DNA of 63,793 nt, the filler included, from Nemertoderma westbladi (lineage: Eukaryota; Animalia; Xenacoelomorpha): NCBI GenBank assembly GCA_032718475.1. It is 3 parts of 3 records of this genome, joined end to end, with 100 filler letters (N's around TTAATTAATTAA, not from the genome) between each part and the next. Parts side by side here need not be neighbours in the genome. Positions count along the whole stretch, not along the records: positions 1 to 31,977 come from JAUCBJ010000741.1; 2 more parts are not named here. The stretch is one strand, 5' to 3'. Position 1 is the stretch's first letter. Each line of letters starts with the position of its first letter. The notes beneath the pieces are model-generated. The model ran no database searches, was not told where the DNA came from, and saw only the letters and a list, made by a program, of their open reading frames with translations. A program made the translations under genes and the position numbers. This document shows positions 3,353 to 43,316 of this stretch, piece by piece.

Positions 3353-3419
3353 GAGAATATGAAACTGACTCATTGTGTTTGGGACCGTCATCCACAAAGG
3401 GGCTGCCAACCATCCCGAG

Positions 3420-6040: not shown

Positions 6041-7575
6041 ACATTCCGTTGTTCACACCCGAGGAAATAGAGTCAGTGATTAAAGGAAAGAAACCGGGAA
6101 AATCTGGATGATCCCTCCCAGCTGCAGTCATTCTCCTCTGGACCACTCTATTTAATATTTGCCTGTCCACCGGAAACCTGGTTAACTGTTGGAAGTTAAG
6201 TATTATGATGGTATTATACAAAGGCAAAGACTCCCGTTTGGACCCTAACTCATATAGGGGAATCTCGTTGCTATGCAACGCATTCAAAATACAAACTAGT
6301 TTAATTGAAAAGCGCCTACATCCCCTGGTATCACACCGTATTCCTCCCGAGCAATTTGGCTTCATGCCGGGGAAGTCCACGTCCATACCGATTGCCCAGC
6401 TTATAAACCGCATATACCAAAATCTCTCAACACCTAAGAAGCCACTCTACGCTGTCTATGTAGACATTAAGAAAGCGTTCGACTCTGTACCTCGCTCTAG
6501 GCTACTGTTCAAGCTCCGAAATTCCTTTCATATTAGCGGTAATCTGTATAAAATTATTGAATCTATATTACGCGTAAACTACATACAATTATTCGATGGC
6601 ATCCGAAAATCAAAAATAGTACAGCAGACACGAGGAGTGCTTCAAGGGGACAGCCTCAGCACCCTGCTCTTCATTTTATTTATTTACGATATTGTCGATT
6701 TTATAAAGCGCGCAGTCTTCCGTATTGGCGAACTCATAGTATTACTATTCGCGGATGACCTCCTATTTTACGGCGATTCCCGTGAAGCCATCCAGGCTGG
6801 GCTCAACGCAGTGGCCGAATGGTCTGCAGAAAATGGTCTAGATGTCAACCTGTCCAAAACCAAAGTGATGAAGTTTCGACGTGGAGGGCGACTTAGCAAA
6901 GAAGATAAATTTACATTTAATGGACAACCACTGGAATTAGTAAACTGATATAAATATCTCGGGGTAACTCTTCAAACAAAGTTATCTTTTACAAAGCACA
7001 TCACCTGTATAACATGTAAAGCGATATCAGTAATCCAATCAATCAACAAACCATATCTCCTTTCTCTACCCTGTGCAATAAAACTGTTTAAATTGAAAAT
7101 TGTTCCCGTAGTTTTATACAGCTTACGTGAAATTTGGCCTTTCATAACTGCAACGAACTTGGAATTTATAGATAAAATCAAATCAACCTATCTTAAGAAA
7201 GTTCTAGGTCTCCATAAGTCCACAAGGAACCAGCTAGTGCTCGCATTGCATTATGCAACGAACGCACCCTCATTTGCGATATCGTTTCACAGCTTCATCT
7301 CACTGCCACACCCGAGTTCATTATATATACTAATAGAGTCGATATTAAGCATCAAGAAATTCCCCCCGCGTTTTGGTCTTGCATTGGGTTTAGTAACCGA
7401 AACTGGTGCAACTCCAACAACCCGAATCGACACGTTACAACTAGATACAGTGTTCATGGTTTTCACCACCGGATCTGTCAGAACAAGCAATTCCACCAAG
7501 CAAACTCATCCTGTATCTTGATTCTGTAATGTGTAGGGCTGGGAGACCTCAAGTGACAAAATAAAACAACCGTTT

Positions 7576-7610
7576 TAGCTAGCTTTCACCCACAGGGCTT
7601 CTTCAGGCTA
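7576..7610 (-). ncRNA. Minimal hammerhead ribozyme in the inverted pLTR
   Basis: Reverse complement of 9171-9205. Confidence 0.7.
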
Positions 7611-8046
7611 GATGGGTACTACGTATTTACCGAAAAACTGCACGCACTGACTGAATGGCCGGTACCGGTTTCGAGGCTACATTACAAATGTTGTTGGGTC
7701 AAATATTCCTTGTATTCCTATCTACTGTATTCCTATCTACTGTATAGAGCTAATCATAATGATATGTAACCAAATAATTATAGTTTTAATGTACTAGCAC
7801 CAAAAATCCTAAACTAATGTATAGAGCAAAAATAATATATAATATAAATAATACATGTCACGAAATAATTGATTTAAATGTACTAGCACCACAAATGTCT
7901 AATTATAATTTTGATGTAAAATAATTAGATAAATAATATAAATAAATTTATACGAGTGTAAAAAATGGGGATGTAAAAACATTATTTAATAATACAAAAT
8001 TACAACAATATCCTACCAACCTGTATCGTATTCAGTTGCATACTGT

Positions 8047-8790
8047 TGCTCACCCCCAAACCATTATCTTAAACGTAGCTAGGAGTACCATTATACGAGC
8101 CATTAATAACAGTACCACAGCTGCAGGCGTAAACAGGAGTCTGGAGAAAGTTAGACAGAGGCTGGCAAACAATGACTACCCATTTGACAATATTAATAAA
8201 CTTATTACACAAATTAAACACCCCCGCATACATACACGAATACACCCCCTACCACAATATATACAACCCTTGGTTCTACCTTACATTAATGAAAACATAC
8301 TGAGACAAGTAAAAGCCGCAGTCCAAAATTCTCCATACGCACATACAACACGCATTGTCTCATCCACCGGCCCTAAGCTACGTAATATACTTACACGGTC
8401 TTCACTCAGCAACCCAAGGTGTCCCGCATTACCCAACACATTACATGTCACCATGGTATTAAGAACTGCATCAGGAAAAATATCGTATATCATGTCAAAT
8501 GCAACATATGTCCTGAGGACTATATAGGGGAAACTGTCGGACCCTTCAGGGGGCGCATCATGCAGCATCGCAACGCCATCCGTAACCGTAACAGAAAGAA
8601 AGATAACTCGGTCGGCGCACATTTCACACACAAACATAGCGACACACATACAGACCACCCATTCACAACAACAATTCTCCGGCGATGCAAGGACTGGCCA
8701 GATAGGAAATTAGCGGAACACGTACTGATAAATAGGAAAGCACCCTCCATGAACACACAGTACGCAACTGAATACGATACAGGTTGGTAG
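8047..8790 (+). pseudogene. Penelope RT C-terminus plus GIY-YIG endonuclease (frameshifted)
   Basis: NIVYHVKCNICPEDYIGET...RIMQH...VGAH...RKLAE...PSMN. Frameshift between listed ORFs 8036 and 8419. Confidence 0.88.
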
Positions 8791-9170
8791 GAAATTGTTG
8801 TAATTTTGTATTATTAAATAATGTTTTTACAACCCCATTTTTTACACTCGTATAAATTTATTGACATCAAAATTATAATTAGACATTTGTGGTGCTAGTA
8901 CATTTAAATCAATTATTTCGTGACATGTATTATTTAGATTATTTATTATTTTTGCTCTATACATTAGTTGAGGATTTTTGGTGCTAGTACATTAAAACTA
9001 TAATTATTTGGTCACATATCATTATGATTAGCTCTATACAGTAGATAGGAATACAGTAGATAGGAATACAAGGAATATTTGACCCAACAACATTTGTAAT
9101 GTAGCCTCGAAACCGGTACCGGTCATTCAGTCAGTGCGTGCAGTTTTTCGGTAAATACGTAGTACCCAAC

Positions 9171-9205
9171 TAGCCTGAAGAAGCCCTGTGGGTGAAAGCT
9201 AGCTA
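9171..9205 (+). ncRNA. Minimal type I hammerhead ribozyme in the Penelope pLTR
   Basis: TAGC-CTGAAGA(A)-GCCC tgt GGGT-GAAA-GC-T-A-GCTA: stem I TAGC/GCTA, stem II, and a palindromic AGCT in place of stem III. This matches the minimalist HHR known from PLEs. Confidence 0.75.
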
Positions 9206-12200
9206 AAACTGTTGTTTTATTTTGTCACTTGAGGTCTCCCAGCCCTACATATTACAGAATCATTTTATACAAAAATTACTCATTTCGACATAGACTTCGC
9301 GATAAAATTTTACAAAACTGGGTATGTGTTATCTTGACCACTAGTTGGAACTTTTAGTGAAACTCAAATCATTCCAGAAATATACAGTTACCATGGTAAC
9401 TGTAGTTTATTAAAGTCTATATCATTCAAGTCTATTCATTTTTTTCATTTCATCATCCGGAATTTTTATATCTATATTCACAACTCTATTTGTAGCAAAA
9501 CCGCAATAGATATAAACTTGGGGTTTTGCAACTCATCTATAAGGTCCATATCCAAGCCGTTTGAGGTTAATTAGAAAATCCAGTTACCATAGCAACCAGA
9601 CTAAACAGATGTTAAAATTTATAAAATGATAATTTGAAGTACAAGTTAATAGTATTATGACTTGCGACCAACACACACCCACTATATGACTTATTCTGCA
9701 TCCGAATTAATTGTTCTATTTTTCAGTTTCCATGACAACCACTGTGTAAACAGATGCATTTTGATAGAAAAACGTTAATTTGGACATAAACTTCAATATT
9801 TTCTGAAACTCGGTATATGTGTTATCTGAACCACAATCTGGACTTAATCTTTTTTCAAATGTTAAACCAACAGTTCCAGAGAACTCTAATTTCCATGGGA
9901 ACAGAAGTTAATTATTGGCAAATGTTACTAAACTAGGCTAAGCAACGAACCAAAGTGTGGCCGTTTGTTTAATGTTCCTTAGCTTCGTGGTTGCATTTCC
10001 TTTAGAAAATGCCTTTCTAGTACAAATTGAATAGCTCCAGTAGTTTTCGAGAAATAAGTCTACAGGGCCAAGGGAAATCAACTACTTTCCCAAAGAAAGA
10101 TTTTCCTTAGCTGAGATGGTGTATTCATACTGGGTTATTTTATTATTTGAATATATATATATATATAATTTGATTCTTCTATTTTGCAGTTACCATGACA
10201 ACCGCTGAAAACAGATGTTTTCATACTCATTTGGACATAGACTTCGCAATAAAAGATTACGAAACTGGCTATGTGATATCTGGACCACTGGTTTGAAATT
10301 TTAGTAAAACTCAAAACTTTCCAGAAATATCTAGTTACCGTCGTAACTGGAGTTTATTAAAGACTATATCATTCAAGTCTATATTCATAACTATATTTGT
10401 AACAAAACTGCAATATATAGAAACTTGGGGTTTTTCAACGCAATGATAAGGACAATAGTCGAGCCGATCGAGGTTAATTAGAAAATCCAGTTACCGGGGC
10501 AACCAGGCTAAACAGATGTTCAAATTTATAAAATGGTTATTTGAAACATAACTTTAAGGTATTATGACTTGGGACCAATCCCTACCCCCACTATATCACT
10601 AATCAACCACTACAATCAGACGTTTTAACAATTAAATCCTTAGTTTTGCACATTAATAACTCAATGAAACTGAATTGAAGTATATGTCACCTGGAACCAC
10701 AAACCGGATCTTAACCCTATTAAAGGGTTAAGGGGGGGGGGGGGGGGTCAATATTACCCCCCACCCACCGAGGTTTTTTTGTTATAACTCTGAAACAAAC
10801 GCAGTGGGGAATCTGAAATTTTATGACTTTTCCTAAAAATCTATTGCTTTCCTAATAGTGAAAACCGTTTTCAAAAATATTGGGAACTTTTCGAGTTATA
10901 GCACCATTTTTTAACCCTACTTCTGGCTCTTCTTTTGAGACGTTTTTTGAAAATTACATTTCATGAAATTTGATTTGTAACATCTCTATTTTTAATTTAC
11001 ACCGGTTTTTTGGTGTTTGCAATTATATATATAAATTAATTTAGAAATTTCAAACTTGTTTTTTAGGCGTGCGCCAAATTTTGGTGCCAGCACCAAATTG
11101 TGAAAAATGTAAATATTTTGTAAATTGATTGTTTGAACCTGTTTTTTGCGTAATAGGGGTTTGTTGGGGTTCGTTCTGATTACGATGGAATATATACGTG
11201 TTGCACCTGGCGTATCAAACTTGTATTTTTTGTTGCTGTATGCAAAATTTTGTGCCAGCACGAAATTTTGAAAATATATTCAATAGTTAAACTGCTTGTG
11301 ACAACTTATTTCCCCCGTTTAGATGTTTAAGACGTTTCTGAATTCAATGGAATAAATAATTTATCTAACTAGAAATCTCAAACTTGTATTTTTCGGAAGT
11401 GGGTGCAAAATTTGGTGCTAGCACCAAATTTTGAAAACTATCAAGTACATCAATTGATTGTGTCTCCTTGTTTCTTGCGTTATACGGGTTTGTGCGGGGT
11501 CTGAATTCAATAGAATAAGTAAAAATTGCATAATAGTTTTCAAACTTGTATTTTTTGTCAGTGGGTGAAAATTGTTGTGCGCCAGCACCAAATTTTTGAA
11601 AATAAGCAAATTGATCAATAGATAGTATCAACTTGTTTCTTGCGTTATACGGGTTTATGACGGTTCTGAATCCGATGGAATCAATAAAAACAGCACTGGA
11701 CATCTCAAACTTGTACTTTTTGGTGATGGGTACAAAATTTGAAGCAAGCACCAAAATTTGGCATATTGCGCCGAAATATACGTGTGTAGCAATGATCTGG
11801 CAAATTAGAAATGGTATACAGACGTTTCGGCCTAGGACGTTTCGGTCCAGGACGTTTCGGCCCGGACATTTCGGCCCGGACGATTCGGCCCGGACGTTTC
11901 GGCCCGTGACTGTAACCGAATGAAAAGGCCAACTTGTTTGATATGATAATAATTATTCATTAAAATTATAATTATGTCACAATAACATACAAACACTTAA
12001 TGAAATATCTTTCATGAAATGGATATTTAATTTATTTCAATCAAAATAAAATAAACATTATGCATGTGGTGCTCTGCCCCATTATGTTTTGCGGCCGAGA
12101 AAATGCAAGTCAGAACAAAACGTTTGGTACCGAGTACCACATTGCTAATAAACTACTAAAGCGAATCAATTTCACGAACCATTTAGCGCTTAAATCTCGT

Positions 12201-27122: not shown

Positions 27123-30100
27123 TCAACTTTGTACACCGTGAGTACTGTTGCCAAACCACAAACCAATAATAATCCCTTTCGCCCACACAAACCGGATACA
27201 TTGTTCCTCTATTGTATTGTAATCCCCACAGTAGTTATTGCATATCGGTATAGCATATTCTGCATTATGGTATAGCAGAACTGAAATTAGCTAAGGTTGT
27301 TGTTACCCTGTATAAAAAGAATAGTAAAGTAGAACCCTGTAATTACCGACCTGTTAGTATATTAAGTACTGTATCTAAAATTCTAGAACTGTTTTTCTAC
27401 AGCTGGAAGCACATCTTAGTAGGCTAAATCTGATCTATGAACTTCAGTCCGGTTTTCGTAAATCATATTCTACAGACACCTGCCTTATTAACTTAACTGA
27501 TACAATTAGATGTAATAATGCAAATAGTTTAGATACTGTTATGGTAATGTTGGACTTACAAAAGGCTTTCGATACAGTAGATCATGAAATTCTGCTAGGT
27601 AAGTTAAGCCTGATGGGTGTAGGTTCTATAGACTGGTTCAAGTTCTAGCTGTCAGACAGAGGTCAAACTGTAGTCATTAGCAAATCGCAGTCTACTGTAC
27701 AAGAGATTACCTGTGGTGTACCGCAAGGTAGAATATTAGGTCCTCTGCTTTTAGTATGCTATGTAAATGATATGATAAGTAGTATAGATCCCGATTTTAA
27801 ACTCATCTTATATGCCGAGATGACAGTGCTCTTATTTTCTCTCATAAAGATCCTATCCATCTTTCCCAAAAGTTAAGTGCAGTTCTAGAATCCTGTAATT
27901 AGTTGTTGGTTGTTAATATGCTATCCAATCACCACGGTAAGACAGAAAGTATTTTGTTTGGTTCCAAAAGAAAGTTAAAGAAGGTTGAAGTCAATAGTTA
28001 TGGACATAAGATAGAAAATAAAAAGGAAGTTAAATATTTAGGCGCTACATTGGATAACTGCTTATCCGGAGAAAGCACAGTGAAAAATATTTGTTCTCGA
28101 AAGTTAACAGTATTACTACTACTTCTACTAGGTCGAGCGAACTCGGACGGATGAGATCCTTCCAGGCTTCCGGATTCTCCATAGTTGTCGCAATTTCGTT
28201 TCTTCTAAGTTCAGTATCCCTTTATGTTGATTTATATATGTTATGGCCGGTCGTCCACGACTACGCTTTTCATGAGTTGGTTGCCAGAAAAGTAGATCTG
28301 GTATGACCTGGTCTTTACTTCACCAGCAGTCTGCGTACTCTGCGTTCACGGAGTAGGTTGATACAGGTGGTATTGTTCCATAAAGCTCGACGTTTATCAT
28401 GTGTTGTCTCCAGCTGATGTTTAGGGCTACACTTAGTAGTCTTGTGTAGCAATCATCAATTCGTTGTTCAAGTGATTTAGTCAGTGTCCAGGTCTCACTC
28501 CCATATAAAAATACACTTTCCACTGTGGCTCGAAAGAACTTAGTCTTCAGATGCCTGGAGAGATCTGATTTCCAGATGGTATCCATTTTTGATAGAGCTA
28601 GCCAAGCCTTTGCTTTCCTAACTTCTATGTACTTTTTGCTACTCTCTATCCATGATCCAAGGTACTGGAAGTCGTCGACCTTCCTTAATTGATTATTATC
28701 AATGGTTGTCAAGTTTCCATCAACATTAAAACTCATGAATTCGGTCTTTGTAGCATTTATATGCAATCCAACCTCCTCAGCAGCCCTCTCCACTTTATTT
28801 AGTAGAAGCTGTGCATCTGGCTAGCGTATTAGAGAGCAGGGCGATGTCAACCACAAAGTTGGTGTCTGTGACTGTAGTTGCCGGATATGGGCCGTTCATG
28901 GAGTGTGAATCCCAGATCTTCACCCTTTGTGGCCATCCTCATTGCGTAATCCAGCACAATTACAAATAGTAATGGTGCTAATGTGTCACCTTGCATTACG
29001 CCAGCCAGGATTGAGAAAAACTCAGTTTCACCATCTGGTATAATATTGATAACAATCCACTACCAGCAACCATTAATTCCATAAGCTCTTAGGATTTCAA
29101 GCATTTTACCTCTATGGATGGAGTCGAATGCCTTCTTGAAGTCCACAAAAGTCATGACTGCGGGGAGATTCTTTGACTTAATTCCTTCAATCAGTCTCTG
29201 TAGTGCAAGTATCTGAGCTATTGTTGTAATCCTATATAGAATCATTTTATTGTATATTTTGGCAGCTACCACAAGCAGACAGATCCCACGATAGTTTTTT
29301 GGTATACCGAGGGCTCCTTTCTTGGTGAGAGGCTTTAGTTGACCTTTAGACCAAATTGGTGGTGGCTTTTCCCATTTTAACATCTGGTTGCAAACATTCA
29401 ATAATGGTCTGTTTAGCAATCCTGTTTTCCATACCTCCGCTGATTTCGCCTAATCCAATCGCTTTATTATGGGACATGCTTTTAATGCTTCTTTGGAGTT
29501 CGGCAGGTGTGAAGTCCCCTGTTTCTATAGGTGGTGTCTTGTCATATATTTTCCTTGTTGTTGACCTCGATGTTTGGTGGCTGCCCAAGCAAGTTGCTGA
29601 AGTGATTTTTCCACTTCCCAACACGTTCTTCAAGACTATCGGCTTTGAGGCGCCCCTTTGCACAAGTCTTGATTGTTGCTGTATGTGAGCAGTTGTAAAT
29701 GCTTCAATTTTATCCTGTATGTACTTTTCCTGGCTGATGTTTTAGGCCAATTTAAATCGTCCTTAGCTTTCTCAACCTTGTTAATGTTGTTGGTTGTTCG
29801 TTTTTTACTTTGTAGGCTATCTTAAAATCTTCTCTCTTACAAGTAACCTCAGAGTTTTGCCATGGCACATACTGTTTTCGTTTGAGTTTCTGAGGGATAT
29901 GCCTCTAAGCTGATTCCTTGTGGGCTTTTATTATATTCTGGTATATTGAATCGGTGGACTGGTCTTCATCCATTGACTGAAATACTTCAAAGCTTGAACT
30001 TCTACTGTGTAAGCATCCTTTACTGCATTGTCAGTTCTGAGTTTCTCCTAGTCGTAGTTGATTTGCTTGCTTGTCCTGGCTGGCTTTGCTGGCTCTCAAA

Positions 30101-30709
30101 CTAAGTCTGATCTCTGCAGTCACAATTCTGTGGTCCGAACCAATTAGGTTGAACGAGCTGTATGCCTAGCAGTTGATCATGCCGGTTCTCCACTTTTTGT
30201 TTATAAGGATGTAATCCAGTTGTGCTTTGGTTCCATTCGGGTATTGAAAGGTCCATAACTTCCCCTTACTCTTTTCGAATGTGGTGTTTGTTGGTATCAA
30301 TTCACATTCTTCCATTAGGTCTAAAAGTAAGTACCCATTTCTATTAGAACTGGTGTTATAGGTGTAACTCTTGATGTCTTCTGGGCCAATTTGCGCATTC
30401 AGGTCACCAGCGATGACTTTAACATTGTGTTTTGGAATGTCCTTTATAAGTCCAGTCAGATCTTCATAAAACTTGACTGCTTGTTCTGGCTCTGAGGCAT
30501 TGGTTGCACTGTAGCAACATATTACTGTTGTCTTGGAATTCCCATCAAATGTTGCGATCATAACCCGGGAATTTATAGATTCGATGTTGTTTAGGGTCTT
30601 AAGTGCAAATGGGCTTAGCAGAATTCCTACTCCACCAATTGATGCATTGGCCGAGTTTCTTACTGCTGAGTTTGTTACTAACGTCCATCAATTTCCTATG
30701 TCATTGTAC

Positions 30710-31053
30710 ATCAAATGGCAGCTGGCTTTGAAATTAATACTCCATATCTCAAGAACCTGTGACCTAGTGGTTGTAGTCTCGGCTTCCACCTCGAGGTCCC
30801 AGGTTCGAATCCGACACCACGCTGATGAGACCCAGTAAGGTCGAAACGCGTACGTGGTTTGGAGAGATATGAGATATTAATTTCAAGAAAAATTACGCGA
30901 TTCTTAAATTTGTACACTACCCGGTTAAAAAAGTACGCATGTGATGGGATTAGTCCTACAATTGCGCCAATAAAAGATAAGTTATTTTCGGTAAAATAAA
31001 CTTATCATTCGAGGTAAAGACCCCTAGATCCCTTCCTATATAATAAATGTATA
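30710..31053 (+). mobile_element. 344-bp retrozyme/SINE-like insertion: tRNA-like Pol III promoter plus hammerhead ribozyme
   Basis: 7-bp TSD ATTGTAC (30703-30709, 31054-31060). Removing the insert restores the RTE frame (..AMKY|NDIG..). A-box TGACCTAGTGG 30760-30770, B-box GGTTCGAATCC 30802-30812. Confidence 0.8.
30816..30858 (+). ncRNA. Type I hammerhead ribozyme
   Basis: ACCACG-CTGATGA-GACC cagtaa GGTC-GAAA-CGCG-T-A-CGTGGT: 6-bp stem I, intact core, 4-bp stem II, palindromic ACGCGT stem III. Predicted cleavage after A30852. Confidence 0.85.
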
Positions 31054-31260
31054 ATTGTACTTCATGGCAGTGTCTTCATGACAAATCCGATGTTCTTGGA
31101 TGCAGATGATGTCGATGTTATATTCCATTGCCAGAGCGACCATGTCACCCTGTTTGCTATGTGCTTTCAGCGCGCGTGCGAGCAATCTTTAGTGTCTTTT
31201 TACATTTCAACAGGTTGGTTCTTCTTTCTTCTCTGTCTTCTGTTGCAGTTGCCGATTTAT

Positions 31261-31977: not shown

Positions 31978-32077
31978 NNNNNNNNNNNNNNNNNNNNNNN
32001 NNNNNNNNNNNNNNNNNNNNNTTAATTAATTAANNNNNNNNNNNNNNNNNNNNNNNNNNNNNNNNNNNNNNNNNNNN
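31978..32077. other. Artificial contig linker
   Basis: 44 N + TTAATTAATTAA (six-frame stop) + 44 N. Confidence 0.97.
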
Positions 32078-32250
32078 TCTGAATGTGCTTTTGTCTATGT
32101 AAGTCTGCATGTGCTTTGTATGTACATTTTATTAACTGTATGTCTTATTGCTGTATTGCCTACCTATCATGAATATGGAAACATAGTGCAGAATTGCTTG
32201 ACTCTGTATTTTCAATTTTCTTCTGCTTGATTAGACTGCAATTCTCAACA
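32078..32250 (+). mobile_element. BEL/Pao LTR, 3' part (contig starts inside it)
   Basis: Matches 39571-39743. Confidence 0.8.
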
Positions 32251-32834
32251 AATTCTTTATTACAATAACCGCAATTATAATTTACATTTTTGTGGATTGA
32301 GTCGAAATGTTGTTTTAGAACGTTTTTTCTAACAAATGATTTTCCACAATCAAAGCAGGTATACTTCAGTACTTAATATCTTTATGGATGAAGTCGATAT
32401 GCATCTTAACAGAACTCTTCTTTAGAAACAGACTCTCACAATAATCGCATTTATACTTAGTGGTCTCTGTTGTTGTACAACTGATTGACGGTTCAGTCGC
32501 GTGGCAATGATCAACGTTGTTACCCGAAGTACCAGCAACATTACATTGTTCATTACGTTGTACCGTTTTTCGACCACAAAAGAATCTCCAGATGGTTCAT
32601 AAGAAATATCTTCGTCATCTAGAACTGGGACAGCATTTGCTGCACCGAACAAATGATGTTGTGATCTACGATGGTTGATGATCCGTAAACGCAGTTCTCT
32701 TGTTTAATTTCCTAGGGATAGGGTGTGAAGTCTGTTGGTTCATTCTTCACAATTGTAGATTCTGTTGGTTCTTTCTTTATAATTATACCAGAACCAAATG
32801 ATTTATCATTCAATACAATATGTTGTTGATTCAT
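32251..32834 (-). pseudogene. C2H2 zinc-finger pseudogene, copy 1
   Basis: Matches 39744-40327. Confidence 0.8.
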
Positions 32835-33131
32835 TATCAAATCTTTAATAAATAGTTATCAATAAATTGTATATATTAGTGTGGAATTAATTTCACACTA
32901 CACTTACTTAATCACCAGGCAGATATAATATCTAACTTTATATCGCAATGCGAAATTTAAAACACCACCACCCCCCAACCCCCCCCCCCCCCCCCCCCCT
33001 CCTCTAGCTTTAAGCAAACCTATCAACCCTCTCGAAATCTATATATTGCAGGAATCAATAAGTCTCACATGACCTCCTTCTCAGATCAAACTTGAGAGAG
33101 CTTAAAAAATAAGTTATCTATCTATTTTAAT

Positions 33132-33523
33132 ATTTTCCTCGGCCGTTAGGCCAGGGATTACGTACAAAGCCTGACAACTTATTTTCTTACAGTGCGGTCC
33201 CCCCAGAACTATATGAATTCCTTTTAGTTAGTTTCAGTTAGTCTTTTAGTTGGTAGCGTTAGTTTCAGAGAGGGAGGGGGGGGGGTGTTATATTGACCAC
33301 TATCCCCCTCGGGGTTTAAGGGGAATACCGGGGAAACTTAACATGCTGACATGGGCAGAAACTCCAGTACTAATTTAGCTACCATTTAAGGATGCAAGGC
33401 AGAGATGCCTCGCTAAACCCTTCAAAGCATTCGTGACGAAACGAAAACTACATTGGCCCCCAGTCCGGGGTTGAACGCACAACCTCCTTGAGATGTGGAT
33501 TCAATATAACCACTACACAAAGG
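33132..33523 (-). mobile_element. tRNA-SINE (family of 17899-18175) with an internal insertion; duplicate at 40626-41017
   Basis: Shared blocks CCGTTAGGCCAGGGATTACG, ACTCCAGTACT..TTTAGCTACCATTTAAGGATGCAAGGC and AAAGCATTCGTG. Confidence 0.7.
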
Positions 33524-33798
33524 TATGGGCTCTGAACCAAGGTGGAACAAGTGTCAGATACCGTCAGATCAGATCAGATCAGATAAGGGCAGACGTTTTA
33601 GCCATCCTACACAACCTAAGATTTTGTTTACCTTACAATTTTCTAGGCATATACATTATACAATTTTTTTACAAAGTAACCTGACTTCCTGACTGCAGAC
33701 AGGCAGACCTAGTGCAGTACCGGTAGTGTGTAACTTCTGAACTTAGTTGGTTAGTTCTGTGGTTGGTCACAGACTGTGACTCACAGTAATCTGGTAAT

Positions 33799-34630
33799 TA
33801 GGGCTCGATCGGAGTTGGGATTTGGCCGGAGCCGGAGCAGGAGCCGGAGTTGGACAATTTGGCCGGAGCCGGAGCAGGAGCCGGAGTTTTTCAAAAATTT
33901 TAAAAATTTAATTATTTATTTAAAAAAAAATAAAGTTTGGTTATCGTTCGCCAATCGCTCATAATCAATCATACTGTCAGACTGTAGGTATAATTAATTT
34001 CATAATTTATAGATTTACGAATTTTCAATTTAAAATTTAAGTAATTAATTTATCACTGTATCATGGACAGACGGCCTGACGCTGACGGCGACGGCCTGAC
34101 GGCTAAAAATTACCTACAGTACCTACCTCCCTAACTGTCTAACTGTGGTAGAGGTTGGAGGTGTGTACTGTAGGTAGCCTACCGTACGTGTACCAGTAGG
34201 CCTACTGCAGTACAGTACTGTGCAGTATGCTGGCATGACAGCAGTAAATTGCTGCAGTGGTACTGTCTGACAATCAGACAGTGTACAATCATAGCATTTA
34301 CAATTTTTTAAAGTAGGGCCTATCTGTAATCAGGTAATAGTCTGCTAGTCAGCTAGCTGGCCAGTACCAGTACTGCAGTACAGTCAGTCAGTCATTGACT
34401 TTAAGTAAATACTGCAGTATTATCAGATTATACTTGATATTGAAGCTGTAGGCCCTACTACAGTACTTATAGTGTTAAATAATTGTTCAGATTAGAATAT
34501 GCACGAAATATAATACTTTATTAAAAAATTAACTCCGGCAATATTTTTACCGGAGCCGGAGCAGGAGCCGGAGGTGCCAAAATCCGGCCGGAGCCGGAGG
34601 CCGGACTGCCGGAGCTCCGATCGAGCCCTA
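33799..34630. mobile_element. hAT-like MITE with CCGGAG subterminal repeats; duplicate at 43438-44261
   Basis: TIR TAGGGCTCGATCGGAG, 8-bp TSD CTGGTAAT. Confidence 0.85.
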
Positions 34631-34785
34631 CTGGTAATTGAGTAATATGACAATGATTGACATGGTTAGAGTTACATTTCTACAGTTTTAATTAGAGGTG
34701 AGGCCGTCACTTCTGTAACCTGCGACGCTACGAGTTTCATACAGTTGGCCCTATCTGCCTATAGGCCTACTGCATACAGCTAGGC

Positions 34786-36862
34786 CAAGGACTACTGAAG
34801 CAAGGACTGGCACACGGTAAATCCAGACTTCGCTAGCGAAGGCCATGTTGTTTATGTTACCGGCGGTAACCAGTTTCAATGATAAACATCAGAACATACA
34901 CATTTCTGGGGTGAAAAATTATGTAGAATCTATTTCTTGTATTAGTTTTTCAATTCTGCAATTACCTGTTGCTTTCATGTTTCATTTTAATGTTTCTTAA
35001 TAATGTAGAGTAGCTGTATAGTGTATATCTGTATAGGCCCTACTGGTATAGGCCTAATTCAAGTAATCCTCCGAAGTGGCATAGCACAGTCAGACAGTAG
35101 CACAAGCATGTACCAACGACATTTCGCCACACCGTCAGACCGTAACTACTAATTTGATTATTAGTAAATGGATTGCCACATTGATCGGATCGCCTTTCTC
35201 GAACAGTCTAAGGGTGAAGGTGAAGGGTAGAAAACGGTAATCTGTATCACCCACTGGCAGACTGCGAGAGTTTCCCGAGGATGTTCCGCAAATCAAGGTA
35301 GCCGGTTCGGTTCCCGGTTGGGTCGTTGCATTGAAACCAACTGTTACACCAAATGAATTTCCCAGAATACCAGCAACCTGTATACCTTCGACGCCACGTC
35401 AAACTCCGTCTGTTGAAGAACGACAGATTAGCTCATTGAACTCTAAGGACTTCTGGACTTGGTAGCTGGGTTCGTTGAATTTGATGCTGGGATCTACGGA
35501 TCTACTCCTGGCATCTGGGTGCACGATCTACTATGGACTGCAGATCGTCTGTCGTTGCGTCACTGCCTGGGACCAAATAACCAACTGTCCATTGGTCGCA
35601 ATTGAGATAACGCAATTCTGCAATTGAGAGAAGTTGTGGCAACGGTGAAAAGAGACACAGATCCACGAAGCGCTATAGGGTACCTCCAGAAGGCCCGCGA
35701 ACTTATTTGGAAGGTCGTCGACTCTGGGAATTCGAAACAACAGAGTCAGTTGGAGTACATTGTTCAAAGACATACTCAACAAAGGTTTATTATATGGTCG
35801 CATCGCAATCCAAGGCTATTCATTAACCCTATCTGGCCCGGGCCATTTTACAACGTAAGAAATAAATTTCAAAAATTTAAATTAAAGTTTCATTAATTAT
35901 TAAATTAATTAATTAAAATTAAAATAAATTTCAAACGCCAAAAATCGAATTTGGTTGGATAATACGATATTTTTGAGTGTCATATTCGTGTTCAGCGCCC
36001 CAGAAAACCCATAATGTCCAAAAATCAGGTTGATTTGGTGATGATTTTTGATTATGAAATTTGTGCTGCTTTGTATTTTCGTGCCGCACATTGACACATA
36101 TCCAAAATTACCATAATCAACAATGTACGATATATTTCAGTGTCATATTCATGATCAACATCACAAAAAACCTATATGATCATAAAATCAATTTGATTGA
36201 TTTTGTGTTGTGGTGATTCTTCATTATCATATTTGCGCTACTTGTTTATTTTGTGCCTCAGAGGCCACATTCAAAATTGCCATTTGAAAAGCAAAGTTAC
36301 TTAATCTATTTAATTAATAAAGAGCCCATATCAGGGCCATTGATGTGTTTTCTGGAGTGGGAATATTTGGTCGGCAATCATAATAATAAATAATATAAAT
36401 AATAACTGAATAATGTAATAACATAGGCCTAATAACATAATACTGTAATAAGCACCTGATAGTAATAAAAAGTACGGTATTATATAAAGTGATAATATAA
36501 AATACCTAAATAAGGCCTATAAAGTAATTATAAAATAATGAAATTTGTTGTGCATCTTTAAACAAATAATAAAATAATAGATATAAAGTAAATAACGGCA
36601 CCTGATAATGAAGGACTTCAAAAGGACATAACAGCATAACGAAAGGGACTACATAATTTATAAACACAAAAAAATATAGAAAATAATACATGAAAGCAAC
36701 AGATAATTGAAAAACTAATACCAGAAATAGATTCTCCATAATTTTTAACCCCAGAATGTGTATGTTTATCATTCAAATTGGGTACAGGTAACATAAACAA
36801 CATGGCCTTCGCTAGTGAGGTCTGGATTTACCATATGCCAGTCCTTGCTTCAGTAGTCCTTG
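34786..36862 (+). mobile_element. P-element-like non-autonomous transposon; duplicate at 44417-48084
   Basis: ~75-bp TIR starting CAAGGACTACTGAAG, 8-bp TSD AGCTAGGC. Internal degenerate THAP-like remnant at ~35165-35450 (KWIATL...FPED...KPTVTPNEFPRIPATCIP). Confidence 0.7.
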
Positions 36863-37583
36863 AGCTAGGCCTAGAAAATCTGTCTACCAAACAGATTTTT
36901 CCCGAAATTTAATAGGCCTACAATATACAACTGTTGCCTAAACTGCTAAACCACACTAACAATTTTCAGCTGAACAGTGTTAATTTTTTGTCACCTATTA
37001 ATTAATATAATAGCTGAATAATAGGTAGTCAGGTAGTATACCGTAATACAATGTTCGATACTTACTTATATATTCCACTACTTTTACGTACTTACGGTAC
37101 CGGACCGGTTTGCATTGCATAGTATTAGTACAGGTAGTATTACAAGGTGTAGTATTAATTTATATTTAATGACCCATCTTCCCACTTCCCATTTTGTACT
37201 TATTAGTTGCTAGTTATGTCGTTATGGTCATTGAAATATCTGAATATAGGTGGTGTACCGAGCACCGCAGACAACACACATTAATTATTTTATCTACAAG
37301 TACAGTACAGATGTACCTACGTCAGTACGTCTGTACGTTATCCAGTATTTCAGCATTAAGGAATATCTAATTTAACCTAAATTTTTTAGACACTGTTGTA
37401 CAGTATTTACACTTAGGCGTACCTACCTATATCTAAATTACTATATTTAAGTCTATCGGTAGGCCTATCTGCCTATACTACTATATTGTGTGTAAAGCCC
37501 GGTTCAAAGGTACACTTCAGTGACAGCGCTGTTTAATATTAAGATTTTAATTTGCAAAGATGATTTATTTATGAAATTAAAAG

Positions 37584-37763
37584 ATGTCGTATACTAATAG
37601 TACCCTGAAAACAAGCTCCGAACAATTTCTTGAGATTAAACATCTTTCGGAAGACACAAACTTTTCTATGTCAGTTTCTAGATCAACAGAATCCCGTGAA
37701 GTACCACTTAACGGTAGACCTAATAATTCAGAAATCAACAATAAAGGCGTGGAGGTAAAATGA
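37584..37763 (+). pseudogene. Truncated ZNF copy (59 codons), ending in TGA at the duplication junction
   Basis: Matches 48806-48984. TGT (Cys) becomes TGA where BEL sequence begins. Confidence 0.9.
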
Positions 37764-39440
37764 CTTCGAGTAGTAGCATACATTTTGCGATTTATTACGA
37801 AACATACACGTAGTTCACTTATAATTGAAGCTGAGGAAATGAATTTATCTGAACTTTATCTTATTCGATCTCTTCAAGCTTCAGCCTTTGCAGATGTTTA
37901 TGAATATGTTGCAACTAATCGTCAACTTGAACGAATTGAAGATTTAAGTAGCCATGTCAAATTACATCATGAGCGAAGTCCACCCATTGTAAAGCAACTT
38001 GGGTTATGCATGGATAAACATGGCTGTATTTGTCTTGCCGGGAGAGTAAAGATAGATCATAGGTATACATTACCTTTACTGCTTCCTAAAGATCATTATG
38101 TCACAAAACTTATTATTCGACATGTACATGAAACAAACTTACATGCAGGTGTTAGTTCTACATTAGTAGCTTTTCGACAGAAATATTGGGTAGCCAGCTC
38201 AAGACAACAAGTGAGAAAAACAATCCATCCATGCATTATATGTTCTAAAGTTATAGGGAAACCCTTTCCCTTGCCACCAACTCCATCCTTACCATATTTT
38301 CGTATTGATGCTGATGTACCTTACTCTGCTGTTGGGATGGATTACACGGGACATTTATGGATAATAAATGATCTTATTAATAGAGAGAAATTAAAAGTTT
38401 ATGTTTGCCTATTTACTTGTTGTTCAACACGACATATTAATTTAGAACTAGCTAATGATTTATCAGCTGACGCCTTTCTTCAATGTTTTAGACGTCATTG
38501 TGCTGTATATTCTACCCCATCATTATGTATTTCTGATAATGCTTCAAACTTCGTAGCTGGTAATGATGAGATCAGCGAACTCTACAATACCTTAGATAAG
38601 GAGGATACTATTAATAGCATGAAAGATATATGTGATGCAAACAAAGTAAAGTTATATTTCTGCAAAAGAAGAATACGGTTTCATCACATACCAAAGAGAG
38701 CCCCATGGTGGGGTGGGTTGTGGGAAATTCTTGTTGGCCTTGTAAAGACTGTACTCAAGAAAATTCTAAGATCATCATTTTTGACATTTAATGAACTGGA
38801 AACTGTGCTAAAAGAATGTCAAGCAGTGATTAATGATAGACCACTATACTATATATCTTCAGATATTGACTATCCCCAACCAATATGTCCTTCCGAACTT
38901 GTATTTGGAAAGCGTATTACAGGATTACCTCATCCACATGTTGAATTAGATGATATACTTGACCCTAGTTTTGGTGTAGACAAAACAACAATTAATCAGG
39001 CCCATGATAGACGCTCCCTCCTCCATAACCAATTTGTAACACGTTTCAAGAAAGAGTATTTGGAAATGTTAAGAGATAAACATATATCCCAATACAAAAA
39101 GGTATCATCCTACCAGTCACGTATTGATGTTGGACAAGTAGTTCAAATACATAGTGACACACCAAGAGTCAACTGGAAGTTAGCAATTGTAGAGCAGTTA
39201 ATGAAAGGTCCGGACGGAGAAACAAGAGCTGCTATAATACATACGGCAAATGGTAAAACCAACCGTCCAATTTCTAAACTATACCCACTGGAGCTTAGTG
39301 TAAGCAATATAGGGGACTTTAGAAAGAAAGAAACCCTTGAACCCCAAGATAAAGATATACGTAGAAGTACTAGAAATGCAGCTGCTAGAGCCACTGAAAG
39401 AATCAAGGAGCAGCTTCAAGATGGCCCGGGAGAATGTTGA
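37764..39440 (+). CDS. BEL/Pao LTR retrotransposon pol C-terminus: HHCC zinc finger, DDE integrase, DUF5641-like tail
   Basis: LRVVAYILRF, H-ETNL-H...CIIC, GMDYTG, ISDNASNF, PWWGGLWE, INDRPL, WKLAIVEQLMKGPDG..RPISKLYPLE. No stops over ~558 codons. Confidence 0.92.
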   Translation, partial: LRVVAYILRFITKHTRSSLIIEAEEMNLSELYLIRSLQASAFADVYEYVATNRQLERIEDLSSHVKLHHERSPPIVKQLGLCMDKHGCICLAGRVKIDHRYTLPLLLPKDHYVTKLIIRHVHETNLHAGVSSTLVAFRQKYWVASSRQQVRKTIHPCIICSKVIGKPFPLPPTPSLPYFRIDADVPYSAVGMDYTGHLWIINDLINREKLKVYVCLFTCCSTRHINLELANDLSADAFLQCFRRHCAVYSTPSLCISDNASNFVAGNDEISELYNTLDKEDTINSMKDICDANKVKLYFCKRRIRFHHIPKRAPWWGGLWEILVGLVKTVLKKILRSSFLTFNELETVLKECQAVINDRPLYYISSDIDYPQPICPSELVFGKRITGLPHPHVELDDILDPSFGVDKTTINQAHDRRSLLHNQFVTRFKKEYLEMLRDKHISQYKKVSSYQSRIDVGQVVQIHSDTPRVNWKLAIVEQLMKGPDGETRAAIIHTANGKTNRPISKLYPLELSVSNIGDFRKKETLEPQDKDIRRSTRNAAARATERIKEQLQDGPGEC

Positions 39441-39743
39441 AAATATATTAGACTGTGGTGATGGGAATGTTAACCATACTGTATCTATAAAATATATTCC
39501 CTTTGGGATCTAAGTTCTTATCTTTTAGTTGTACCGGTACTCTGTACTGTACTGCTTTCTTATATATATATCTGAATGTGCTTTTGTCTATGTAAGTCTG
39601 CATGTGCTTTGTATGTACATTTTATTAACTGTATGTCTTATTGCTGTATTGCCTACCTATCATGAATATGGAAACATAGTGCAGAATTGCTTGACTCTGT
39701 ATTTTCAATTTTCTTCTGCTTGATTAGACTGCAATTCTCAACA
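39435..39743 (+). mobile_element. BEL/Pao 3' LTR (309 bp)
   Basis: PPT-like GGCCCGGGAGAA immediately upstream. Ends TGTTGAAAAT...ATTCTCAACA. The right end abuts an interrupted zinc finger. Confidence 0.8.
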
Positions 39744-40327
39744 AATTCTTTATTACAATAACCGCAATTATAATTTACATTTTTGTGGATTGAGTCGAAA
39801 TGTTGTTTTAGAACGTTTTTTCTAACAAATGATTTTCCACAATCAAAGCAGGTATACTTCAGTACTTAATATCTTTATGGATGAAGTCGATATGCATCTT
39901 AACAGAACTCTTCTTTAGAAACAGACTCTCACAATAATCGCATTTATACTTAGTGGTCTCTGTTGTTGTACAACTGATTGACGGTTCAGTCGCGTGGCAA
40001 TGATCAACGTTGTTACCCGAAGTACCAGCAACATTACATTGTTCATTACGTTGTACCGTTTTTCGACCACAAAAGAATCTCCAGATGGTTCATAAGAAAT
40101 ATCTTCGTCATCTAGAACTGGGACAGCATTTGCTGCACCGAACAAATGATGTTGTGATCTACGATGGTTGATGATCCGTAAACGCAGTTCTCTTGTTTAA
40201 TTTCCTAGGGATAGGGTGTGAAGTCTGTTGGTTCATTCTTCACAATTGTAGATTCTGTTGGTTCTTTCTTTATAATTATACCAGAACCAAATGATTTATC
40301 ATTCAATACAATATGTTGTTGATTCAT
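39744..40327 (-). pseudogene. C2H2 zinc-finger pseudogene interrupted by the BEL LTR
   Basis: Manual translation: MNQQH..IKKEP..VKNEP..(stop)EIKQE, two frameshifts, YKCDYCESLFLKKSSVKMHIDFIH, an 8-bp insertion, YTCFDCGKSFVRKNVLKQHFDSIH, then YNCGYCNKE cut by the LTR. Confidence 0.85.
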
Positions 40328-41173
40328 TATCAAATCTTTAATAAATAGTTATCAATAAATTGTATATATTAGTGTGGAATTAATTTCACACTACACTTAC
40401 TTAATCACCAGGCAGATATAATATCTAACTTTATATCGCAATGCGAAATTTAAAACACCACCACCCCCCAACCCCCCCCCCCCCCCCCCCCCCTCCTCTA
40501 GCTTTAAGCAAACCTATCAACCCTCTCGAAATCTATATATTGCAGGAATCAATAAGTCTCACATGACCTCCTTCTCAGATCAAACTTGAGAGAGCTTAAA
40601 AAATAAGTTATCTATCTATTTTAATATTTTCCTCGGCCGTTAGGCCAGGGATTACGTACAAAGCCTGACAACTTATTTTCTTACAGTGCGGTCCCCCCAG
40701 AACTATATGAATTCCTTTTAGTTAGTTTCAGTTAGTCTTTTAGTTGGTAGCGTTAGTTTCAGAGAGGGAGGGGGGGGGGTGTTATATTGACCACTATCCC
40801 CCTCGGGGTTTAAGGGGAATACCGGGGAAACTTAACATGCTGACATGGGCAGAAACTCCAGTACTAATTTAGCTACCATTTAAGGATGCAAGGCAGAGAT
40901 GCCTCGCTAAACCCTTCAAAGCATTCGTGACGAAACGAAAACTACATTGGCCCCCAGTCCGGGGTTGAACGCACAACCTCCTTGAGATGTGGATTCAATA
41001 TAACCACTACACAAAGGTATGGGCTCTGAACCAAGGTGGAACAAGTGTCAGATACCGTCAGATCAGATCAGATCAGATAAGGGCAGACGTTTTAGCCATC
41101 CTACACAACCTAAGATTTTGTTTACCTTACAATTTTCTAGGCATATACATTATACAATTTTTTTACAAAGTAA

Positions 41174-43316
41174 CCCTGCAAACAATTTACTTTCAAGGAA
41201 TGTCAGAAAAACATCATTAATTTGTTATAAATGTTGATAAATGTTATTCCCTTGTTTGATAGAATATTTAGATGTTCAATATATGTTATTTTAACATTAC
41301 TCTATAATGTCTTTGTCAGACATTAAATAAATGATAACTGTTGATGTTAAAAAAACGTAATTATAATGTGAGAACATAAACATTAGTCAAAAATGTTTTA
41401 TAAGTGTTTAGTTCTAACATTTTAAGAACATGGTTTGTTACATATCAGAACAATGTTATTTTGTCACATAAAATAAACATTATGCGATAGACGCTGTCAC
41501 TTCTATTATCCAATCTGAGATTGATGATTGGCTAATTTTAAAATTCGCGGTAATGGAGGAATTTTCCACATGTAAATGGTATACAGTATGGTATGTTGTA
41601 CAATACTCATTCTGTCATGCCTGTATTCAATGTTTATTGTGTATATGTATTGTTATACTGCTGTACTGCAAGGCCTATCTCTATATTACTGTAGTGTAGT
41701 TACTGCAGGCCTACTGCTCTGTACAGTAGCTTATATTTTTGGTTTTATAGTTTTGGTTTTGTGATTTATTTAACCTGAACTCATAAATAAAACATATCTA
41801 CCTGAATGCGAGTTAGCCTTTACCCTCTGGATTCACACATTACTGCATTAGACCTACCAATTACAGAATTCAAGTCTGCCAGGACCAGAAAGTCCCCTTA
41901 AACCAGAACTGACAGGTGGAGGATTGACTTATTTGTCTGTACTGATGGTGGATTTCAACAGCCGAGGACTAAAGATTGGAATTCTTATTATTGGGAGGTC
42001 CCAGTTTTCAGTTGAAGGGGCAGGGCACAGGGACAGCATTACTACAAAACTTTCGATTCGATTTCGATTTGAAAACTTCACATTAACTGTTATTACAAAC
42101 TATTTATTGTTTCAGTTTTTAGATTGTACTTTTGTAGGGCCTAGGCCTATTGATTTATTTTTACAGTTTAATAAATGAAGCTCACTCAGCTATAATTATA
42201 ATTAACATTTAATTTTTTAAATATGATTTGTTCAGATAGAGAGGATTTGCGATGCAATCAAAATCATCCCTCTCCAGGGAGATATCGATTCAAATAAGTA
42301 CTGATTACTCTCCCAGAAATAAATCTGTAACCTGTTTTTTTTTGTTTACCCGTAGGATATAATAATGTGCCTCTGTAGCCAACTGTAACCTGCTCCTTTT
42401 AATAATTTAACATTGTTGTGAGGTATTATTTATTAAACCCACTATGTACATTATTTTATATAGTCTACAAATTAGATCTATAAATCTAGTGAATAATATT
42501 AACTCAAAGTATTTTAATTGATGCAATTCATTACGTTGTTGTCACTTATTATTACGTCATAAACATATTCTTTTTAAGTCTGTAATTAACTTTAACCGAA
42601 ATATCAAAACCATTTACATAATGGGCCATACAGCCATATATTTGTTGTTTTACTTATTCTGCGATATTTTACTTTGATTTTGCTGTTTATTTCATTATTT
42701 GTTCCTGACTGGTCATTATACAAAAAATTCAATTCATGTTAAACGTTTTAATTGTTATTAATTTGCATACAATTGCCTACAACAAAATTGTATTCAATCA
42801 AACTGTGTTAGAGATTGTAGCCTGCCACTACCATATCAACATGCATAGGGAAATTATTAATTAATTATTCAATAAAGGGTTTGGCAATTATAAAGAACGA
42901 TATAAGGAACGGCAATGGAGGGGGATTATTAGTTTGAGCAAGCGAACCAACCATAAAACATGAGAGAAGGGCTTAAATGTACGTATAATGTTACGTTTTT
43001 AGCAAACAATATTTTTATGTTAAGAAATAACATAAAATTAACGATCTAAATAAACATTACGCCGTTGTTATTTTAATGTCAATAAAAACACAATAATAAT
43101 GATGAGGAATAACATAAAAGTAATGATATATGTAACCATCCTGGCTTTGTTATTTTAATGTTATTAAAAACGAAATAATAACGTTAGTATATAACGTCAT
43201 ATTTCTTGGCCAATTTACAGTTTTTTTACCATTAATCTAACAATTTGAAATAATGTTATCTATGTCATTAAATAACATTTTAATAACAGCTTTTTAACAA
43301 TACATTGTTTGCAGGG
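41174..43316. mobile_element. CMC/EnSpm-like non-autonomous element (2143 bp), present only in duplicate copy 2
   Basis: 13-bp TIR CCCTGCAAACAAT and 2-bp TSD AA. Empty site GT-AA-CCTG at ~33676-33683. Confidence 0.8.

What the first reader, a model, noticed from the sequence alone, without database searches (positions are those of the whole stretch)
30710..31053. Pol III/tRNA-promoter hammerhead retroelement (retrozyme-like SINE) inserted in an RTE
Seen: a 344-bp insert with a perfect 7-bp TSD and no poly(A) or simple-repeat tail. A and B boxes with a CT-TCC-AC anticodon-like loop run directly into a complete hammerhead (30816-30858). The cassette is enclosed by a ~23-bp inverted repeat (30728-30750 / 30864-30886), a second hairpin lies at 30976-31006, and the promoter is internal rather than at the 5' end. 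Known: Schistosoma Sm-alpha and animal non-LTR retrozymes combine these traits and yield small circular RNAs. Inference: a circularly permuted monomer of a possibly new retrozyme family, perhaps mobilised by the Penelope RT in this genome, whose HHR also has a palindromic stem III.
Basis: partly seen in the sequence, partly recalled or inferred. Interest (0 to 1): 0.85.

Follow-up and report, generated by a model that had tools for sequence, protein, structure and literature searches.

The report
Truncated tRNA-headed hammerhead retrozyme copy
A 344-base piece of a many-copy, non-coding animal repeat sits inside a broken LINE between two copies of a 7-base target; it carries tRNA-type promoter boxes and a predicted self-cutting hammerhead, and was likely copied from a circular or multi-unit RNA, a design already known from blood flukes.

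Summary
The insert is 30710-31053 with a 7-bp duplication; empty sites skipping exactly 351 bases occur in 4 of 4 runs. A/B boxes, a type I hammerhead (5 of 10 pairs covary with an independent relative) and both inverted repeats are real. It is one of many dispersed copies.

The reading needs correction. One contig repeats with a 411-nt period, so this is about five-sixths of a unit, not a whole permuted monomer. Right ends cluster near 31040-31055 while left ends vary, as for target-primed copying with 5' truncation. The copy still crosses the predicted cut site and starts about 50 nt before the A box, which fits a circular or uncut multi-unit RNA template. No tRNA cloverleaf is detected, a T4 run may stop Pol III, and the window's Penelope-like fragment shares no significant sequence with it. 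Cleavage, circles and Pol III use are untested.

It works like Schistosoma Sm-alpha and animal non-LTR retrozymes: a new member of a known kind. This scan already noted 411/412-bp arrays of this design elsewhere in this genome (unchecked notes).

The parts
30703..30709 (.). Target-site duplication, left copy (7 bp)
   Evidence: empty-site joint in 4 of 4 runs
30710..31053 (+). Inserted element: about five-sixths of a 411-nt unit, non-coding, 39.8% GC, antisense to the host LINE
30728..30750 (+). Left arm of the inverted repeat enclosing head and hammerhead
   Evidence: 20 of 23 matches, 0 of 150 shuffles; paired in fold
30760..30770 (+). A-box-like motif; this copy has A at 30762 where nearly all other copies have the consensus-type G
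30802..30812 (+). B-box motif, 31 nt after the A box; its last bases also extend hammerhead stem I in the predicted fold
30816..30858 (+). Type I hammerhead; predicted cut after A30852; palindromic 6-nt stem III predicted to work as a dimer
30864..30886 (+). Right arm of the inverted repeat
30976..31006 (+). AT-rich hairpin containing a T4 run (30985-30988), a possible Pol III terminator
30996..31055 (+). 3' segment: region where many copies end; also shared with another repeat that has different upstream sequence
   Evidence: loose ends and pieces
31054..31060 (.). Target-site duplication, right copy; its first 2 bases also match the element's continuation
28131..31212 (-). Host: broken single-ORF APE+RT LINE (RTE-like), interrupted in the endonuclease domain
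7519..9262 (+). Context only: 5'-truncated Penelope-like fragment (GIY-YIG ORF, inverted duplicate of its 3' end, minimal hammerhead-like motif at about 9171-9205); not shown to be the partner

Best explanation
The insert is a 5'-shortened copy, flanked by a 7-bp target duplication, of a many-copy non-coding repeat with tRNA-type A/B boxes directly ahead of a type I hammerhead motif, and it was likely pasted in by target-primed reverse transcription of a circular or uncut multi-unit RNA, most likely by a Penelope-like enzyme. Shown: insertion with duplication, many dispersed copies, a 411-nt period in one contig, motif anatomy and covariation. Inferred model: tandem source copies are transcribed (Pol III from the boxes with read-through of the T4 run, or Pol II read-through); neighbouring hammerheads pair through their palindromic stem III and cut after A30852; unit-length RNA is closed by a host ligase; an autonomous element's nuclease nicks the target and its RT primes near 31053, copies back across the cut site and the head, and stops at about 30710, before one full round. 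This lone copy is likely a dead end: one hammerhead only and a private A-box change.
For: Empty sites in 4 of 4 runs and same frame on both sides. Long, mutually unlike flanks behind 31040 in 28 (X1), 33 (X2) and 4 (X5) contigs; other pieces start at 30777, 30913 and 30996: clustered right ends, variable left ends. X4 contig of 441 nt holds 31017-31040, 84 other letters, then 30713-31040: period 411. 11 and 17 contigs continue upstream of 30713 with a shared sequence absent here. The copy spans the cut site and starts 50 nt before the A box, so neither a primary Pol III transcript nor a cut linear monomer could template it (inference). Two copies co-fold as a double hammerhead, -44.3 versus -36.0 kcal/mol for two monomers; monomer stem III probability 0.0. 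Independent relative L029 has the same head, hammerhead and palindrome in an approximately 1-kb tandem; 10 of 10 pairs kept, 5 with changes on both sides. Insert differs from its X4 contig at 3 of 328 places, host LINE at 28 of 798 (Fisher p 0.015): the insert is the younger. 7 bp is close to the 8-10 bp duplications of rotifer Penelopes (PMC3846280 passages); a Penelope-like fragment lies in the window.
Against: The 411-nt period rests on one contig of one run labelled as another organism (B) whose RNA/DNA status is a guess; no tandem joint was listed for the organism A runs (57 joints hidden, none). T4 at 30985-30988 with two more T just ahead would stop human Pol III efficiently in vitro, though read-through occurs in vivo (PMC3141230 passages). 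No tRNA fold is recognised. No significant similarity to the window's Penelope-like 3' end (15 and 21 of 200 shuffles score as high for the whole insert; 6 and 8 of 200 for the 3' part, AT-rich, among 15 comparisons). No Penelope hallmark (inverted partner) at this insertion. Duplication length does not separate Penelope from LINE enzymes. Covariation rests on two sequences (15 of 500 shuffles reach it). In Xenopus only 1 of 9 predicted retrozyme dimers cleaved in vitro (bioRxiv 10.64898/2026.07.22.740005).
Confidence: 0.68

Rival explanations
1. Same element and RNA, but a LINE (APE endonuclease + RT) is the mobiliser, recognising the 3' segment near 30996-31055, so it behaves as a hammerhead-bearing SINE.
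For: Clustered right ends and variable left ends are LINE-like. Long contigs of X5 (1965 and 869 nt) and an X6 contig run into the 3' third of the element from unrelated upstream sequence. An unchecked note reports 412-bp units joined to a LINE tail in this genome (e1-10596620).
Against: No similarity to the 3' regions of three LINEs in the window (63 to 178 of 200 shuffles score as high); no poly(A) or simple-repeat tail; the head is not at the 5' end.
Confidence: 0.18
2. A DNA fragment of a 411-bp tandem repeat was captured at a staggered break, with no RNA step.
For: The ends fall inside the unit, with 2 nt of microhomology on the right and 3 unexplained bases on the left; no RNA evidence was obtained.
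Against: Many dispersed copies share a right-end region; a clean 7-bp duplication; hammerhead structure is conserved with compensatory changes; no terminal inverted repeats.
Confidence: 0.08
3. A solo LTR of a small non-autonomous LTR element with a Pol III promoter inside its LTR (Helenus/Ajax/Cassandra-like), the 84 nt being the internal part.
For: The promoter-like head is internal; an LTR-internal-LTR element would also give a looped contig; such elements are described (PMC10886601 abstract start and passages).
Against: The ends lack the TG...CA termini (rule recalled); the duplication is 7 bp; left ends vary; at least 13 of the 84 nt appear inside this copy.
Confidence: 0.05

Closest known systems
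Sm-alpha / Sj-alpha SINE-like hammerhead retroposons of Schistosoma (PMC6765202, PMC2770079, PMC8490949: passages; Ferbeyre 1998 not held)
   Same: Promoter followed by a type I hammerhead, tRNA-related head, high copy number, tandem copies needed because cleavage leaves the promoter at the 3' end of the monomer; unit of a few hundred bases.
   Different: Sequence homology not tested (no Sm-alpha sequence available from the tools). Here head and hammerhead are enclosed in a 23-bp inverted repeat, no cloverleaf is detected (many Sm-alpha copies are called tRNA-Gln by tRNAscan), the unit is 411 nt, and Pol III use and cleavage are untested.
Metazoan non-LTR retrozymes (PMC7229834, parts 2-4 of 6; bioRxiv 10.64898/2026.07.22.740005, parts 1-3 of 5; supplements not seen)
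   Same: Type I hammerhead, 150-450 bp unit, GC under 50%, non-coding, duplication over 4 bp, self-paired fold, dispersed solo copies, Penelope-like elements in the same genome; weak helix III as in the dimer-dependent axolotl motif.
   Different: Those texts describe no internal A/B-box promoter (PMC7761336 suggests read-through by any polymerase). Circular RNA is shown there and not here. No homology to a Penelope pLTR was found here, while 24 of 57 Xenopus families matched known elements, nearly all PLEs.
Non-autonomous Penelope-like elements / pLTR derivatives (PMC8557442, PMC3846280, PMC9977147: passages)
   Same: Head-to-tail copies, frequent 5' truncation, short duplications, hammerhead in the repeat.
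   Different: No shared 3' end with the one Penelope-like fragment tested; that fragment's hammerhead-like motif is of the minimal type, this one is canonical.
Ordinary tRNA-derived SINEs
   Same: A and B boxes, non-coding, target duplication.
   Different: Head is internal, no LINE-like or poly(A) tail found, hammerhead directly behind the B box.

Membership tests
Metazoan non-LTR retrozyme | Type I hammerhead with intact core | tested here: met
   covariation with L029
Metazoan non-LTR retrozyme | Tandem unit of about 150-450 bp | tested here: inconclusive
   411-nt period in 1 contig of X4; solo, sub-unit copy in the window; arrays only in unchecked notes
Metazoan non-LTR retrozyme | Non-coding, GC under 50% | tested here: met
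   longest ATG-started frame 15 codons, GC 39.8%
Metazoan non-LTR retrozyme | Target duplication longer than 4 bp, multi-copy | tested here: met
   7 bp, empty sites in 4 of 4 runs, many unlike flanks
Metazoan non-LTR retrozyme | Self-cleavage | not testable with these tools
   only predicted, as a dimer
Metazoan non-LTR retrozyme | Circular RNA in vivo | not testable with these tools
   only contigs were available; they cannot tell a circle from a tandem array
Sm-alpha-like retroposon | A and B boxes directly ahead of the hammerhead | tested here: met
   consensus-type A box in other copies
Sm-alpha-like retroposon | Head recognisable as a tRNA | tested here: not met
   ARAGORN 0 genes; no Rfam tRNA hit at E<=5; rod fold
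Sm-alpha-like retroposon | Sequence homology to Sm-alpha/Sj-alpha | not tested
   no reference sequence obtainable from the tools
Sm-alpha-like retroposon | Pol III transcription | not testable with these tools
   motifs only; T4 run inside the unit
Penelope-derived non-autonomous element | Homology to a pLTR or Penelope 3' end | tested here: inconclusive
   not significant for the one fragment in the window; other Penelope families of the genome could not be searched
Ordinary SINE | Promoter head at the 5' end | tested here: not met
   A box begins 50 nt inside, and the unit continues upstream in other copies
Ordinary SINE | LINE-derived or poly(A) tail | tested here: not met
   no match to 3 of 3 LINE 3' regions tested; last 15 nt are element sequence

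The most novel reading that the evidence does not exclude
The Sm-alpha design (own tRNA-type promoter plus hammerhead) is a recurrent class of self-promoted retrozymes well beyond schistosomes; sub-unit inserts like this one record an RT priming at a preferred site on an RNA circle; and the long repeats that share its 3' segment are the autonomous partner, which would name the enzyme that mobilises animal retrozymes.
Probability: 0.3. Interest if true: 0.65.

Novelty: new member of a known kind. Interest (0 to 1): 0.4.

Why it matters
How animal retrozymes are transcribed and which retrotransposon moves them is open in the papers read (PMC7229834; bioRxiv 10.64898/2026.07.22.740005). A young, abundant family with built-in A/B boxes, clustered 3' ends and a 3' segment shared with longer repeats would let both questions be tested. 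The design itself is known from schistosomes, and this copy is a truncated, likely inactive insertion, so its own novelty is modest.

Tried and rejected
No whole genome is held, so no genome-wide copy count or end map. Rfam at gathering level: 0 hits in the window. No RNA holder listed. Pattern scans for close relatives found nothing: metagenome contigs with the strict pattern, prokaryote genomes, viral contigs. The relaxed viral scan gave 17 loci, phage tRNA-like or unrelated. The relaxed metagenome scan gave 12 loci, of which only 1 (L029) matches the insert. Look-ups of earlier findings by sequence, relatives and neighbourhood returned nothing, so identity with the 411/412-bp arrays in other notes is unverified. 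An 1831-nt X5 contig sharing 30777-30885 was considered as an autonomous partner and set aside: it has changes at three core positions (30824, 30844, 30851). Two loose-end motifs from other copies are absent from the window. The host taxon was not resolved: zinc-finger and LINE homologues were uninformative; the GIY-YIG piece found no longer relatives. DNA transposon: no terminal inverted repeats. Depth sums were not used as copy numbers. One search used a misplaced structure string and was replaced. The 84 letters of the X4 contig were not displayed by the tool. Paper searches listed no description of A/B-box hammerhead repeats outside schistosomes; only listings and the passages named were seen, subscription papers and repeat databases are not covered, and unseen supplements may bear on this.

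Full report
Observation. The window has no whole genome behind it, so copies were studied through public run contigs. The 7-mer at 30703-30709 recurs at 31054-31060 and cannot be extended. Contigs that jump from 30702 to 31054, skipping 351 bases with 7 letters fitting either side, are present in 4 of 4 runs laid. These are most likely other copies of the host LINE family, not proof that this locus is polymorphic. The host is a broken minus-strand LINE: Pfam endonuclease and RT pieces, relatives that are single ORFs of about 1000 aa (43 hits), and 4 of 4 of those tested match both flanks in order, in the same frame. The label RTE fits this layout but was not tested with a tree.

Motifs. The A box is at 30760-30770 and the B box at 30802-30812; boxes plus hammerhead core occur once in the window and in 0 of 300 shuffles. 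Other copies carry G at 30762, the consensus-type base, in nearly all depth in X1, X2, X4, X5 and X7, so this copy has a private A-box change. The head is not recognised as a tRNA (ARAGORN 0; Rfam none at E<=5), folds as a rod, and the anticodon-like triplet differs in the X7 relative. The hammerhead is type I with a full core, the only one passing my filter in the window; Rfam HH9 scores 26.6 bits, E 2.8e-4, below the gathering score. Stems I and II form with probability 0.76-1.0 in the whole insert; stem III does not form in a monomer, and two copies co-fold as a double hammerhead 8.3 kcal/mol below two monomers. The enclosing inverted repeat (20 of 23) exceeds 150 of 150 shuffles; the insert folds with z -3.4. 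It is non-coding and 39.8% GC. A T4 run lies at 30985-30988.

Family. The insert is single in the window, but 7 of 12 listed runs hold it or part of it. Behind 31040, 28, 33 and 4 contigs of X1, X2 and X5 go on into long flanks that agree poorly with each other (0.45-0.62): many dispersed copies that end there or a few bases later. An X6 contig follows the window to 31055, so the last bases are element sequence and not a tail. Upstream of 30713, 11 and 17 contigs continue with a shared sequence that this copy lacks. Other pieces begin at 30777, 30913 and 30996. Only 20 of 922 and 10 of 25 loose-end rows were displayed, so the end map is partial. The one X4 contig (441 nt) reads 31017-31040, 84 undisplayed letters, 30713-31040: a period of 411 nt, that is a tandem array or a circle. 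X4 is labelled as another organism and its RNA status is a guess; it also holds consensus-like contigs of two neighbouring LINEs, so it is no evidence of expression. The window copy is therefore about five-sixths of a unit. It differs from the X4 contig at 3 of 328 places, the host LINE from its contig at 28 of 798 (p 0.015, gaps not counted), so the insert is the younger.

Independent relative. Of 12 metagenome loci from a relaxed pattern, 1 (L029) matches. It has A/B-like boxes, a type I hammerhead with the same palindromic stem III (HH9 28.2 bits) and two units about 85% alike at about 1-kb spacing. All 10 stem I and II pairs hold in both sequences, 5 with changes on both sides; 15 of 500 shuffles reach this and slid controls do not. 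Two sequences only. X7 (sediment) holds a further diverged relative.

Mechanism. A transcript starting at the boxes would lack 30710-30750, and a cut linear monomer would start at 30853. This copy runs continuously across both points, so its template was likely a circle or an uncut multi-unit transcript; a hammerhead that needs a partner makes the second as plausible as the first. Clustered right ends and variable left ends suggest priming near 31053 on the hammerhead-sense RNA with 5' truncation. The driver is not shown. The window has a 5'-truncated Penelope-like fragment at 7519-9262: GIY-YIG at E 0.002, below the cut-off, Atlas look-alikes at 0.95-0.96 with GIY-YIG on 11-24% of members, an inverted duplicate of its 3' end and a minimal hammerhead-like motif near 9171-9205 read by eye and not the predicted minimum fold. 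It has no RT core and no significant similarity to the insert; nor do three LINE 3' regions. A palindromic helix III is general in metazoan type I hammerheads (PMC4209133 passages). Long contigs in X5 and X6 that run into 30913-31055 from other upstream sequence are the best lead to a partner or sister family and remain unidentified. Against a simple Pol III circle model, T4 terminates human Pol III efficiently in vitro, with read-through in vivo (PMC3141230 passages); the behaviour in this animal is unknown.

Comparison. Promoter plus hammerhead in tandem SINE-like repeats is the Sm-alpha design (PMC6765202 passages; PMC2770079 passages; PMC8490949 passages; the original paper was not held). 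Size, GC, duplication and fold match non-LTR retrozymes (PMC7229834 passages and parts 2-4 of 6; PMC7761336 passages), proposed to derive from Penelope-like elements (bioRxiv 10.64898/2026.07.22.740005 parts 1-3 of 5, where only 1 of 9 dimers cleaved). Rotifer Penelopes make 8-10 bp duplications (PMC3846280 passages). It works like both kinds; membership of Sm-alpha proper is not claimed, since a tRNA fold was not found and homology was not tested. Unchecked notes of this scan describe 411/412-bp arrays of this design in the same genome and similar families in two other genomes; my 411-nt period came, before those look-ups, but sequence identity with those arrays could not be checked.

Verdict. 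Real feature, partly right interpretation: a truncated, likely inactive copy of an abundant tRNA-headed hammerhead retrozyme family; new member of a known kind; interest 0.4.

Noticed in passing
L001-L004, L007, L012, L013 (viral contigs, match near position 1500): Type I hammerhead motifs lie a few bases behind apparent phage tRNA genes, in the 3' trailer; reminiscent of tRNA-linked theta ribozymes (recalled) but of the hammerhead class.
   Followed up: no
L029 885-1012: A 57% GC, roughly 1-kb tandem repeat from a metagenome contig with A/B-like boxes and a type I hammerhead; the contig starts about 15 nt after the equivalent cut site; no obvious protein; host unknown.
   Followed up: partly
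window 7519-9262: 5'-truncated Penelope-like element with frameshifted GIY-YIG ORF, inverted duplicate of the 3' end (93.6%) and a minimal hammerhead-like motif near 9171-9205.
   Followed up: partly
window 34894-37762 vs 46116-48984; 32078-33681 vs 39571-41175; 33678-34896 vs 43317-44527: Near-identical long duplications (100%, 99.9%, 99.3%) beside N gaps at 31978-32077: recent duplication interrupted by insertions, or an assembly artefact.
   Followed up: no
window 30777-30885, 30913-30975, 30929-30995, 30996-31040 (contigs of X5, X6): Long multi-copy contigs carry diverged pieces of the element at their ends, and one short motif recurs next to pieces at 30777 and 30996; suggests sister families or a longer partner.
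   Followed up: partly
window 37764-39440: 558-codon ORF with integrase zinc-binding and DUF5641 domains, BEL/Pao-like LTR element remnant (label recalled).
   Followed up: no
window 48803-50173; 3268-4845; 55025-55963: A C2H2 zinc-finger array ORF and two long minisatellite-like repeats giving open frames.
   Followed up: no
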